Shown here: positions 35,683-55,265 of the stretch, piece by piece | How positions within the stretch are numbered: position 1 is the first letter of the stretch | How the letters are laid out: every line of letters begins with the position of its first letter | Source: Octopus sinensis | Lineage: Eukaryota | Assembly: GCF_006345805.1 (NCBI RefSeq) | Contig: NC_042997.1 | Coordinates: 180,978,001 to 181,042,000, forward strand | DNA length: 64,000 nucleotides | Direction: 5' to 3' | Translations under genes and position numbers: made by a program | Notes under the pieces: generated by a model | Seen by the model: only the letters and a program-made list of their open reading frames with translations | What the model was told of the DNA's origin: nothing | The model's database searches: none

Positions 35683-36519
35683 TCTCTTCATATATTGCTA
35701 TTCATGGAATATCAATTTCTCGAGTATATTTTCTGAAAACGTCGTAGGATTGGAGAAGTTGGAAAGTTTCTGTTTTTCAGAATATTAGTCAAGAGGCATA
35801 TTTTTCACGAGTGTGCATCTGAGATAATCAGGACTGTTGCAAACGTGATTGATCGAAGTCTCAAACCGTTGTCAATGTAAAATTCCTTTGTTCATGACTG
35901 GAGAAAGAATATTGAAGATAACATCATTGTGGATCAGGGAAACGGCCTGTCAATACCGACAGTGATGAATTTGTCAGTGAGAAAATTTCACATCCTGGTA
36001 CGAAATCAGCTTTGCTTGCTATAACACTGTTACGTCAATCAAACGACAGAATACTTTTGTCCTGCAGAGTCTATGTTTGAAAATATCAGAATTGGAGAAC
36101 ATTAGATTAATGTATATAACGACTTCTAAGAACGGTATATAGATTCCCTATGGATTTCGCCGGCGTTTTTCTATTTAATGTAAATGTAAGACAGGATAAG
36201 TATACAAAACAAACCTAGAGTTGGTTTCATAGTGCATCAAATGTTTTTATTTAATTTTCTCCCATTCTTTTATAGAAACAGCGAATATCTTTATCATAAA
36301 CAAAGTTAGTTTTCAGTGACACTAATGGTAACCACCTGTTTTACGCTAAAATTGCTCTAAGATTGACCTTTAAACAACGGAAATGGGGTAAGAGATGTTC
36401 GAGTGAATTCTTCTGGTGGTGTATAAGTATTAATATAAACATAAATGCAAACATAGCGTATCTTTATATATATATATATATGTTTCTTTATACACATATC
36501 TATCTACGCATACACACAC

Positions 36520-36562
<43 letters not shown>

Positions 36563-36564
36563 TA

Positions 36565-36960
36565 AAATACAAAATGAGACAAGAACGCAAAACATCCGGA
36601 CAGCTAGATGATACAAAAAGGGACAACAAAACATCCAGAAAAACGATACAAAGAAAACAAGGATGGGTCATTCGAAGTTTTCTTTCCTCGGTCAAGCACC
36701 AGATTATCCTCGCAATTTCGGCTGATTCTTCTTGAGATTGCACCAATCTGGCCAGCCCCAAGGAAAAACTAAGCTGAGAGCATTAGATTCCTTGGAAGAA
36801 AGCATCGAATGTATACAGAAACAAGAACGGAAAAACGGACAAATTACACAAATATAAATACAATAATAAATACAATAAAAATAATAACAGGACATAACAA
36901 TAGGTGTCTTTCGACTAAGGACGAATTGAATTAAGCTGGCGCGTGTGAAACTGAAGCCTT
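36565..36960 (-). mobile_element. non-coding PLE-type terminal repeat ending in (TA)n, carrying a rearranged hammerhead
   Basis: T-rich tracts on minus, abuts (TA)n, contains the structured motif at 36674-36795; PLE assignment inferred. Confidence 0.5.
36674..36795 (-). ncRNA. non-circularly permuted hammerhead-like ribozyme
   Basis: ccaaggaa/ttccttgg; ggctg/cagcc-GAAA; ccagatt/aatctgg; GAAATTGC/GCAAT-C; tcaag/cttga-CCGAGGA. Confidence 0.6.
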
Positions 36961-38010
36961 ACGACAGAGATAATGTATGTATGTATGTTCGGTTATTCGA
37001 CATAACAGCGTATTGCATAAGAACAGCCTTATCGCTCTACATGCATCTCGAGCTGTCTCTCCTTCTGTAGTGAAGCGAATCTTCTTCAGTATTCGACAGC
37101 GTATTTCTGAAAGTATCCACGCATGCCTGGTCGCAGTGTCCTTCCCACCCGACCATGTCATTCATCTTCGTTGAAACCAAATAGTTATTGTGTGGATGTA
37201 ACTGTTCCTACCCACTCACGTGTTCTCTATATGTCGGTGAAGCTGAACTTGAACCGATTGCATTTCTTATCAGGTCAAAGATGGTTAGCTTCAAACGACA
37301 TTTTAGATTGTAGCCTCCTACTTTTGTCTGCTTTTAACCTAGGACTCCAATTTCATCAAAATACTAATTCACTTCACTGTCCACGTATTACAGGAGGTGG
37401 GATACTCTCAGCAGGTGTCTGTGATTTGGCAACTATAGCATGCTCGAACGCCTTGAGCATGAGCCCTGGCAAAAGACAAACAAAAGTTGACCGGAGGTTT
37501 TAGTTCCTTCCACTGGAAACAGAAATGTCATGATCTGAGGAAGCTACAGCAAGCAAACAGAAATATCATGATCTGAGGAATCTACAGTAAGCAAACAGAA
37601 ACATCATGATCTGAGGAATCTACAGTAAGCAAACAGAAAGCATGACGGATGCGATGTAGGCATTCACCATTTCAGCTCGAGTTACCAGGGATAGTTTCTT
37701 CTGAGCTCATTTCTAAGTGACACCATCCAAGCTGCTCATAATTCGTCCCAGTTCCTGATGACTTCGAGGTTCAGATCGAACAGCACAATGTAGAGTTTAA
37801 CTAGCTCCACTATCCAGTTCCCACGACACTGTCCAACATCATATACTTGTCCTTTCAAATACGTAACTATTCTTCCGGATTTATATTCGTTCCTACCATC
37901 GATTCCTATTTCGTTTAAATGGTTTAGACCACTGAAGTATCCTGAGCTTTCAGCAGCTGATTTTCATTAAAGAAGATCCATTCCAATGTATTTCATGGAC
38001 ATTGTCCTGA
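36960..38010 (-). mobile_element. decayed Tx1/L1-clade LINE ORF2 C-terminal remnant
   Basis: minus-strand peptides KLYIVLFDLNLEVIRNWDE, KKLSLVTRAEMVNAYIASV, HRHLLRVSHLL, typical of the Tx1 post-RT region. Confidence 0.55.
37517..37645. repeat. ~38-bp minisatellite, 3+ copies
   Basis: aaacagaaa..tcatgatctgaggaa.ctacag.aagc repeated. Confidence 0.9.
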
Positions 38011-54225: not shown

Positions 54226-55265
54226 ATGCGCTGTGTGGTAAGAAGTTTGCTTTTAAGTCACATAGTTCCGTGTTCTGTTCCACTGCGTGGCACCTTGGGC
54301 AAATGTCTTCTCCTATAGCCTCGGGGCAACCAAAGCCTGCCCTGTGTGTGTGTATGTATGTATCTATGTATGTATATATATGTATATTTTTATTTTTTGT
54401 ATTTTTATTTCGTATTTTATTTTGTAATTTTATTTGTATCGTTTTTTTGTCACTTGTTTAACCTTCCTTGTTTTTACCCCTCTGCGAAGTAATTTTATTT
54501 AATTCCTTCGCAGGAAGGACTAGTTCCACGAGTCGTGTTCTGTCCAACCTTCGAAACACGCTGGAGTTGAACTAGGGACAGCTGATGAAGGGGATTTTTC
54601 CTTGTGTAGTTTGTCTTGTACTCTTTGTTTTCGTTTAGGTCCGTTTCCACGTTTGTTTTTACGTTTTCGTTTCTCGTTGAGTTCTACGTCTATTTGTGGT
54701 GTCCTGTACTCACGTATATATATTTATATATGCATGTATATATACATGTAGATGTAGGTGCGTACATATATGTATGTATGTATGCATATATTTTATTTAT
54801 TACACTATATATATATATATATATATTATGTGTATGATTGATTGATTGATTGATTCTAGTTTCAGCTTATGCTGGGGCACCGCCATTGATTTGTGTATGT
54901 GTTCGGCAAAAGAGACCGATAGAATAAGTACTGGGCTTACAAAGAATAAGTCCCGGGGTCGATTTGCTCGACTAAAAGGCGGTGCTCCAGCATGGCCGCA
55001 GTCAAATGACTGAAACAAGTAAAAGAGTAAAAAAAGAGTAAAAGAGTATGTGTCTGGATCTGTGGTTGCCCCCACCACTATCACTTGACAACCAATGCTA
55101 GTGAGCTTATGTCCTCGAGACCAAGCGGCTCAGCAAAAGAGAACGATTGAATAAGTACTAGGCTTACAAAGAATAAGTCCTGGGGTCGATTTGTTTGACT
55201 AAAACCCTTCAAGGTGGTGCCTCAGCATGGCCGCAGTCAAATAAATGGCTGAAACAAGTAAAAGA
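54226..55265 (+). mobile_element. tRNA-derived SINE (family of 10064-10497) with duplicated tail, interrupted in its microsatellite
   Basis: head gctgtgtggtaagaag..ccttgggcaaat; tails at ~54900-55045 and ~55070-55265. Confidence 0.75.
54482..54604 (+). ncRNA. non-circularly permuted hammerhead-like ribozyme in a PLE-type terminal repeat (~54385-54715)
   Basis: ctgcgaag/cttcgcag; gaagg/ccttc-GAAA; ctagttc/gaactag; GAAACACG/CGTGT-T; ctgtcc/ggacag-CTGATGA. Confidence 0.7.

What the first reader, a model, noticed from the sequence alone, without database searches (positions are those of the whole stretch)
36674..36795. Second, sequence-unrelated copy of the same scrambled hammerhead fold (near-complete covariation)
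Seen on minus: hairpin ccaaggaa/ttccttgg - GGCTG - g - CCAGATT - ggt - GCAA-U-C - TCAAG - aagaat - CAGCC-GAAA-TTGC - gaggat - AATCTGG - tg - CTTGA-CCGAGGA - small hairpin. Every helix of the 54482 motif is present in the same order, with the same 1-nt spacer and the same G10.1-C11.1 pair, yet helix sequences differ almost entirely. Two different repeat families sharing five paired regions plus the core is strong evidence of a conserved structured RNA class. This copy has U4C (CCGAGGA), probably post-insertion decay. Predicted cut between 36736 and 36735. Both copies sit in T-rich non-coding repeats next to (TA)n.
Basis: partly seen in the sequence, partly recalled or inferred. Interest (0 to 1): 0.88.

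Follow-up and report, generated by a model that had tools for sequence, protein, structure and literature searches.

The report
Hammerhead ribozyme opened inside its core
Thousands of jumping-gene copies in this animal genome carry the catalytic letters of the hammerhead self-cutting RNA in a scrambled layout that is split inside the core and predicted to be held together by two extra helices; the same layout can be read at the tails of Naiad retrotransposons from five animal phyla, so it is likely the "missing" ribozyme of those elements, though cutting is untested.

Summary
Observation confirmed. The fold lies on the minus strand at 36685-36757; a descriptor finds only this and the 54514 copy in the window and nothing in 3,248 shuffles. 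U4C is copy-level decay (6,491 genome matches with U4, 39 with C4). The block order is that of the non-circular SGC/CSG hammerheads of Eckert 2023, but the chain is opened between A9 and G10.1, which that paper assumed cannot happen. The copy is the truncated 3' part of an ~800-bp non-coding, tandem, (TA)n-associated Penelope-type unit (retrozyme-like). Five families in this genome keep the fold with compensatory changes; one is the 3' end of Naiad elements. By eye, 10 of 53 published Naiad consensus ends (five phyla) show it, and 6 nematode ends show intact type CSG, explaining the unexplained 'HHR_half_core' notes of Craig 2021. 5' ends of copies are enriched just 3' of the predicted cut (suggestive only). 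Cleavage is untested. This scan earlier noted a core-opened hammerhead in phages and twisters in Naiads on other DNA; I did not find this fold in print.

The parts
36564..36972 (-). 5'-truncated copy (last ~410 bp) of an ~800-bp non-coding Penelope-type repeat unit (family A); 17 differences from the column-commonest letter in 410 nt
36806..36811 (-). P0 outer helix, 5' strand (pairs with 36669-36674)
36796..36803 (-). P0 inner helix, 5' strand (pairs with 36677-36684; one A-C mismatch in most copies, C-G in 11 of 62)
36758..36795 (-). P5 hairpin (8-bp stem 36795-36788/36765-36758), directly abutting G10.1
36753..36757 (-). Stem II 5' arm, starting with G10.1; detached from the CUGANGA block
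36745..36751 (-). P4 5' arm (equivalent of the stem I-stem II linking helix of type SGC/CSG ribozymes)
36731..36741 (-). Block S: stem III 3' arm, U16.1-C17, predicted cut between 36736 and 36735, stem I 5' arm
36712..36724 (-). Block G: stem II 3' arm, GAAA, stem III 5' arm
36699..36705 (-). P4 3' arm
36685..36696 (-). Stem I 3' arm and catalytic block CCGAGGA; C at 36690 is a copy-level U4C change
36669..36684 (-). P0 3' strands (inner 36684-36677, outer 36674-36669), starting directly after A9
36465..36564 (.). (TA)n microsatellite at the 3' end of the element
54385..54710 (+). Family-B copy with the same fold (P0 5 bp, P5 8 bp, G10.1 at 54514, intact core ending 54588, predicted cut 54539/54540); unit not alignable to family A

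Best explanation
This stretch holds all hammerhead core nucleotides (one mutated in this copy) and five matching pairs of helix arms in the scrambled SGC/CSG order, with the CUGANGA block separated from the stem II arm that normally follows it, and it is predicted to fold into a self-cleaving hammerhead because two extra helices (P0 and P5) would bring A9 back next to G10.1. It sits near the 3' end of an ~800-bp non-coding repeat unit that shows Penelope-type insertion marks. Inferred mechanism: in transcripts of tandem units the ribozyme can fold only after its last strand is made, cuts after U16.1-H17 as a monomer, and leaves both new ends held by stems II, III, P4 and P0; two cuts would release a unit-length RNA poised for circularisation, which the RT/GIY-YIG protein of an autonomous Penelope-like element would copy into (TA)n. 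The same ribozyme would serve a subset of Naiad elements, which were reported to lack hammerheads. The window copy is likely impaired by U4C.
For: Shown: motif and chance controls. Five families in this genome (A, B, C, D, F) keep block order and an intact core with different helix sequences. In 13 aligned A/D/F copies 93.5% of cells pair and 10 of 43 pairs change on both sides, in P0, P5, P4, III and I; slid registers give 0-3. P0 plus P5 is present in 11 of 21 A, 17 of 19 B, 23 of 24 D and 22 of 23 F copies against about 1% of flank shuffles. In A, D and F no stem II partner follows the core (0-1 bp). The youngest families (D: 19 of 40 scored copies identical over 201 bp; F: tandem near-identical copies) carry the intact fold. 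Family C (307 exact pattern matches, control 0) lies downstream of Naiad-type RT remnants. Read by eye in Craig 2021 File S5: the fold in 10 of 53 Naiad 3' ends from ctenophore, cnidarians, acanthocephalan, crustacean and octopus, and intact type CSG in 6 nematode ends. 5' ends: 25 of 96 unselected copies end at +1..+12 of the cut against 6 of 71 at -12..-1 (Fisher p = 0.004) and 0-4 per 12 nt further upstream. [quoted passage not shown]
Against: No cleavage data. Within family A the core is no better conserved than the flanks (0.044 against 0.048-0.050 changes per site) and only 33 of 62 copies have a whole core, as expected for dead copies, so selection is seen only between families. The 5'-end excess is not significant in the narrow window (7 at +1..+5 against 4 at -5..-1, p = 0.54); 11 of the 25 fall on an A/T-rich linker that offers microhomology with (TA)n; and among neighbouring copies not selected by a query only about 4 of 30 at risk start within 5 nt of the cut. 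Family C has a weak P0 (3 bp) and 0 of 3 copies pass the P0+P5 test. In B and one C copy a 4-bp intact-core register with two G-U pairs exists. Some abundant subfamily copies carry an A-C mismatch in P4. Stem II is invariant among A/D/F; its covariation comes only from B, C and the published Naiads. No autonomous partner of A/B/D/F was found; the Naiads scored here are decayed. In the one Penelope element tested in vitro, hammerhead cleavage was not needed for insertion (PMC11167929).
Confidence: 0.8

Rival explanations
1. Conserved hammerhead-derived fold that no longer cuts, or cuts only with protein help; it is kept as a binding or RT-positioning signal for the Penelope protein.
For: No cleavage shown; energy models give low probability to stems I and II because they are pseudoknots; the anole Penelope hammerhead cleaved only with protein and was not needed for insertion in vitro; 8 of 9 Xenopus retrozymes tested did not cleave.
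Against: All catalytic nucleotides, U16.1-H17 (H = A, C or U, never G) and G10.1-C11.1 are kept while helix letters turn over across five families and five phyla; 5' ends of copies are enriched just 3' of the predicted cut.
Confidence: 0.13
2. An ordinary type-SGC hammerhead: the true stem II partner is the sequence just after CUGANGA (with a 1-nt insertion), and the upstream arm is a decoy or switch.
For: Family B and one family C copy allow a 4-bp register after a 1-nt insertion; such an insertion is usual in Penelope hammerheads.
Against: Families A, D and F allow only 0-1 bp in any of four registers; the upstream arm is fully complementary in every family; the downstream strand covaries with the P0 partner instead.
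Confidence: 0.05
3. Chance arrangement in a repeat, multiplied by transposition.
For: Copies within a family are not independent; plain folding energy of this copy is unremarkable.
Against: 0 hits in 3,248 shuffled windows; found independently in unalignable families A, B and C and in published Naiad consensus sequences of other phyla.
Confidence: 0.02

Closest known systems
Non-circularly permuted hammerhead ribozymes, types SGC / CSG / GCS (Eckert, Friedrich, Weinberg, Weinberg 2023, PMC10085705; read parts 1-6 of 8, i.e. the main text; supplements not seen)
   Same: Same cyclic order of blocks, same short linker from stem I to stem II, same extra helix joining the other arms of stems I and II (P4 here), two core pseudoknots.
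   Different: Those keep CUGANGA joined to the stem II arm (the paper states no known alignment has more than 1-2 nt inserted there and assumes the block cannot be interrupted) and were found in metatranscriptomes, metagenomes and one bacterium. Here the chain opens between A9 and G10.1, two further helices (P0, P5) enter the core, and the RNA is in animal retroelements at thousands of copies.
Minimal type I hammerheads of Penelope-like elements (Cervera and de la Pena 2014, PMC4209133; passages seen)
   Same: Same place in the terminal repeat of Penelope-type elements; G10.1-C11.1 pair; tolerance of extra sequence between positions 9 and 10.1. The active Neptune-type element of this genome carries such a motif.
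   Different: Those are circular-order type I motifs with a weak stem III that need dimers; this has a full stem III, non-circular order and a predicted five-way core junction.
Non-LTR retrozymes of animals (Li, Clavereau, Pollet, bioRxiv 10.64898/2026.07.22.740005, parts 1-3 of 5 read; Cervera and de la Pena 2020, search listing only)
   Same: Non-coding tandem units of 51-972 bp with one ribozyme per unit, derived from Penelope-like elements.
   Different: Defined there by a type I hammerhead; their descriptors would miss this fold; cephalopods were not sampled in the parts read.
Naiad clade of Penelope-like elements (Craig, Yushenova, Rodriguez, Arkhipova 2021, PMC8557442; passages, section 6, supplement parts 1 and 24 and passages seen)
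   Same: (TA)n targets, 5' truncation, partial tandems, inversions, tails; family C here matches the octopus Naiad 3' end, which the authors flagged 'HHR_half_core'.
   Different: The paper reports no canonical hammerhead in Naiads and gives no structure for the core fragments. Families A, B, D and F have no coding sequence and no alignable similarity to the Naiad unit apart from the fold.

Membership tests
Hammerhead ribozyme | Core CUGANGA, GAAA and U-H | tested here: met
   Family level; the window copy itself has U4C
Hammerhead ribozyme | Stems I, II and III flanking the core, G10.1-C11.1 and A15.1-U16.1 pairs | tested here: met
Hammerhead ribozyme | Self-cleavage after H17 | not testable with these tools
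   Only contigs were available; 5'-end enrichment is suggestive
Hammerhead types I-III (Rfam) | Circular block order C-G-S, three-way junction | tested here: not met
   Order is S-G-C; no Rfam hammerhead match up to E=5
Type SGC/CSG/GCS hammerhead | Non-circular block order with helix linking stems I and II | tested here: met
Type SGC/CSG/GCS hammerhead | Block C uninterrupted (CUGANGA directly followed by the stem II arm, at most 1-2 nt inserted) | tested here: not met
   0-1 bp in A, D, F; a 4-bp rival register only in B and one C copy
Non-LTR retrozyme | Non-coding unit in head-to-tail tandems, one ribozyme per unit | tested here: met
   Units of about 700-850 bp in tandem; longest ATG-started ORFs 56-81 aa
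Non-LTR retrozyme | Type I hammerhead | tested here: not met
Non-LTR retrozyme | Transcribed, cleaved and circularised RNA | not testable with these tools
Penelope-like element insertion signature | Fixed 3' end in microsatellite, variable 5' truncation, inverted and partial tandem copies, tail | tested here: met
Naiad element (family A itself) | N-terminal GIY-YIG plus RT ORF upstream | tested here: not met
   No shared ORF upstream in 30 loci chosen by the unit's 5' part or in 20 further loci read 4.3 kb upstream
Naiad element (family C) | RT with DKA motif upstream of the 3' UTR; N-terminal endonuclease | tested here: inconclusive
   RT remnants and DKA seen; the endonuclease was not reached in the truncated copies fetched; the published consensus with this 3' end has it

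The most novel reading that the evidence does not exclude
A seventh natural wiring of the hammerhead ribozyme: non-circularly permuted and opened inside the catalytic block, with a five-way core junction. It is active, is the previously unrecognised ribozyme of a wide branch of Naiad retrotransposons (with type CSG in nematode Naiads as its closed-core sister form), and drives abundant, still-mobile retrozyme families in this genome; its cut is recorded in the 5' ends of genomic copies.
Probability: 0.68. Interest if true: 0.92.

Novelty: new variant of a known kind. Interest (0 to 1): 0.85.

Why it matters
The six-permutation scheme for hammerheads rests on the three core blocks being unbreakable; this fold breaks one of them and recurs with covariation across phyla. 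It turns an open point in the Penelope field (Naiads thrive without a recognisable hammerhead; unexplained 'half cores') into a simple bench test, puts non-circular hammerheads into animal genomes at thousands of copies, and shows that descriptor-based ribozyme and retrozyme censuses miss a class. A core with two extra helices at the A9/G10.1 joint would also be a natural site for attaching aptamers in ribozyme engineering.

Tried and rejected
Rfam scan of the window: 104 matches up to E=5, all microsatellite-driven miRNA/snoRNA noise, no hammerhead. Energy folding alone is uninformative for a doubly pseudoknotted fold. Search for an autonomous parent: none upstream of A, D or B; the active Neptune-type family (30 loci) has no split, SGC or CSG hit and shows a minimal canonical motif instead; a second RT-endonuclease family (5 loci) has no hit either; Naiad RT matches are all broken or short (150 scored of 1,018 candidates). 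Sequencing runs: no RNA holder listed, only contigs; laying 4 of 24 runs gave no information on ends or joints. Within-family conservation of the core is neutral. Literature searches that found no description of this fold: 'non-circular permutation'+'hammerhead', 'Penelope-like'+'hammerhead'+'octopus' (20), 'Naiad'+'hammerhead'+'ribozyme'+'Penelope' (32), 'hammerhead'+'type-SGC' (46), a five-term insertion search (47), a five-term permutation search from 2019 (72), 'A9 and G10.1' (83, no hits), 'Naiad'+'ribozyme'+'self-cleav' from 2022 (97). The library lacks most subscription papers, and the supplements of PMC10085705 and of the 2026 preprint were not seen. PMC10162972, PMC7936874 and PMC13725137 (passages) describe other variants only. 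The published Naiad sequences were parsed by eye and not run through my descriptor; Darwinula, spider, crab and Pristionchus ends were ambiguous or negative and were not counted.

Full report
Observation. On the minus strand the sequence reads, 5' to 3': hairpin (36795-36758), stem II 5' arm (36757-36753), P4 5' arm (36751-36745), stem III 3' arm, U, C, predicted cut (36736/36735), stem I 5' arm, 6-nt linker, stem II 3' arm, GAAA, stem III 5' arm, P4 3' arm, stem I 3' arm, CCGAGGA (36691-36685). A descriptor for this order with Watson-Crick pairs only finds this copy and the + strand copy at 54514-54588 and no hit in 3,248 block-shuffled windows. A relaxed version gives 3 hits scoring 21.5-22.5 in 464 kb (window plus 40 unselected 10-kb stretches) and 5 hits scoring at most 17.5 in 278 shuffles of the same DNA; it gives no intact SGC or CSG hit there. 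Rfam does not recognise it.

Host element. The genome is 2.72 Gb; its match to the published octopus Naiad 3' end points to a cephalopod. The 36.6-36.9 kb stretch has 4,328 first-look candidates, the 40 scored being 90-100% identical; the 54.4-54.7 kb stretch has 2,445. Family A copies share a fixed 3' end in (TA)n, vary in 5' extent and often have inverted or partial tandem copies. Walking upstream gives a unit of about 800 bp that starts with a short tail and occurs head to tail (L081/L082, period 829 bp); none of 30 loci continues into shared coding sequence. The window copy is its last 410 bp (36972-36564). Family B is a separate unit of similar size, not alignable to A. These are the insertion marks described for Penelope-like elements (PMC8557442 section 6) and the organisation of non-LTR retrozymes (preprint 2026.07.22.740005).

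U4C. Of 62 distinct family-A copies 58 have U, 3 C and 1 a gap at position 4; 33 of 62 have a whole core. Genome-wide, an exact pattern shared by A and its relatives matches 6,491 times with U4 and 39 times with C4, reversed controls 0. So the change is copy-level decay. A natural U4C variant lowers activity considerably in vitro but sufficed for a viroid in vivo (PMC3088659 passage), so this copy is likely impaired. In family B 27 of 30 copies pass a core test. Inside family A the core decays at the flank rate (0.044 against 0.048-0.050), as expected after insertion.

Further families and covariation. The unbiased scan found family D (L129; 1,496 candidates, 19 of 40 scored copies identical over 201 bp, tandem arrays of about 700 bp), and a neighbour of one D copy led to family F (1,733 candidates, tandem period about 850 bp). 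A, D and F units are 61-71% alike. On an alignment of 13 chosen A/D/F copies, 93.5% of cells pair, and 10 of 43 pairs change on both sides (3 in P0, 1 in P5, 2 in P4, 1 in III, 3 in I, 0 in II); 1 of 500 shuffles reaches that count, slid registers give 0-3. The rows are related and hand-picked, so these are not probabilities. Some copies of an abundant intermediate subfamily have one A-C mismatch in P4.

In every family the 5' hairpin (P5) ends directly at G10.1, and the strand after A9 pairs with the sequence just 5' of P5 (P0), with 0-2 nt between A9 and P0. P0 plus P5 passes a fixed test in 11 of 21 A, 17 of 19 B, 23 of 24 D, 22 of 23 F and 0 of 3 C copies, against 12-21 of 2,000 (14 of 1,200 for C) flank shuffles. 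Variants after A9 in family A are mostly A-to-G changes that keep P0 through G-U pairs. The predicted core is thus a five-way junction (I, P0, P5, II, III) with the chain ends outside P0. The rival intact-core register gives 0-1 bp in A, D and F, and 4 bp with two G-U pairs in B and in one C copy.

Relation to known hammerheads. Eckert et al. 2023 (PMC10085705) divide the hammerhead into blocks C, G and S, assume the blocks cannot be interrupted, and validate types SGC and CSG, both with a helix linking stems I and II. The present fold has the same cyclic order and that helix (P4) and is a circular permutation of SGC/CSG opened between A9 and G10.1. Penelope minimal hammerheads usually carry one extra nucleotide at this joint (PMC4209133), so the backbone there tolerates additions; that two helices fit there is my inference.

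Link to Naiad elements. Craig et al. 2021 report no canonical hammerhead in Naiads but flag 'HHR_core' and eight 'HHR_half_core' cases, one in octopus. I read by eye the last 330-600 nt of 53 of the 54 Naiad consensus sequences in their File S5. The split-core fold with P0 and P5 is there in 10: Bfor (stem I only 2 bp), 3_Chem, 2_Movir, Amil, Anas, Aacu (one stem II mismatch; the three Acropora entries are near-identical), Plae, EuTe, Obim and Ovul (P0 about 3 bp); Esco fits partly. Six of these ten were not flagged by the authors. Six nematode ends (Nbra 1-3, Hcon, Hpol, Asuum) show intact type CSG. The remaining 36 showed neither in the part seen. These readings were not computed. In this genome a short pattern from the octopus end matches 307 times, control 0, and such copies lie downstream of Naiad-type RT remnants with the DKA motif. 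All 150 Naiad RT matches scored are broken or short, so the young families D and F probably use another Penelope-like protein; the active Neptune-type family carries a minimal canonical motif instead and I could not identify the partner.

A genomic trace of cleavage? Among the first matches of a pattern for copies that begin in (AT)n, 24 of 28 distinct loci begin at +1..+9 of the predicted cut and 4 upstream (by eye). In 96 distinct copies from the first 100 matches, which were not selected for 5' extent, 25 end at +1..+12, 6 of the remaining 71 at -12..-1 (p = 0.004) and 0-4 per 12 nt beyond. This is what reverse transcription running off a cleaved 5' end would leave. Against it: the narrow comparison is not significant (7 against 4, p = 0.54; by eye 9 against 1), 11 ends fall on an A/T-rich linker with microhomology to the target, the sample cannot show the rate 3' of +12, and neighbouring partial copies show only a weak excess (about 4 of 30 within 5 nt). 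I count it as suggestive. Public runs gave only contigs.

Mechanism. Shown: sequence, order, covariation, element structure. Inferred: folding, monomeric cleavage, retention of both ends by four helices, circularisation and copying by a Penelope-like RT/endonuclease. The role of hammerheads in Penelope elements is itself unsettled (PMC11167929).

Novelty. Eight literature searches found no description of a hammerhead opened at A9/G10.1 or of a structure for the Naiad core fragments; the library is incomplete. Earlier unchecked notes of this scan describe a core-opened, circular-order hammerhead in phages (e1-5861567), a type CSG copy (e1-7368731), a permuted hammerhead in a Penelope-like element (e1-7354453) and twisters in Naiads (e1-6818684); none matched this sequence, and I reached my reading before seeing them. 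Verdict: a real, conserved, most likely active new topology of a known ribozyme class that makes an open question about Naiad elements testable; new variant of a known kind, interest 0.85.

Noticed in passing
PMC8557442 File S5, Naiad-1/2/3_Nbra, Naiad_Hcon, Naiad_Hpol, Naiad_Asuum: Nematode Naiad 3' ends carry complete type-CSG hammerheads with an intact core block, a type published from only two metagenome sequences; read by eye.
   Followed up: partly
PMC8557442 File S5, bivalve, hemichordate, Clytia 1/2 and Morbakka 1 Naiad ends: These share another conserved 3' UTR motif that is not a hammerhead and looks twister-like by recalled consensus; earlier scan notes report twisters in clam Naiads.
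   Followed up: no
L129:5300-6000 and L164-L183; L215-L233: Families D and F are very young (identical copies, tandem arrays of up to six units), so an active helper element should exist in this genome; it was not identified.
   Followed up: partly
L184-L213: Abundant Neptune-type Penelope element (15,869 candidates, open frames up to about 1,000 aa) with a C-terminal GIY-YIG domain, ending in (TA)n and carrying a minimal canonical hammerhead-like motif.
   Followed up: partly
L234-L238: A second RT plus C-terminal endonuclease Penelope-like family ending in (TA)n, with no hammerhead hit in its 3' region by my patterns.
   Followed up: partly
window 37517-37639: A 38-bp tandem repeat (3.2 copies) whose unit holds the words GAAA and CTGAGGA, about 550 bp from the element; no convincing stem II by eye.
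   Followed up: no
window 54850-55260: Two pieces of a common dispersed SINE-like repeat, also seen in many fetched loci, lie next to the family-B copy.
   Followed up: no
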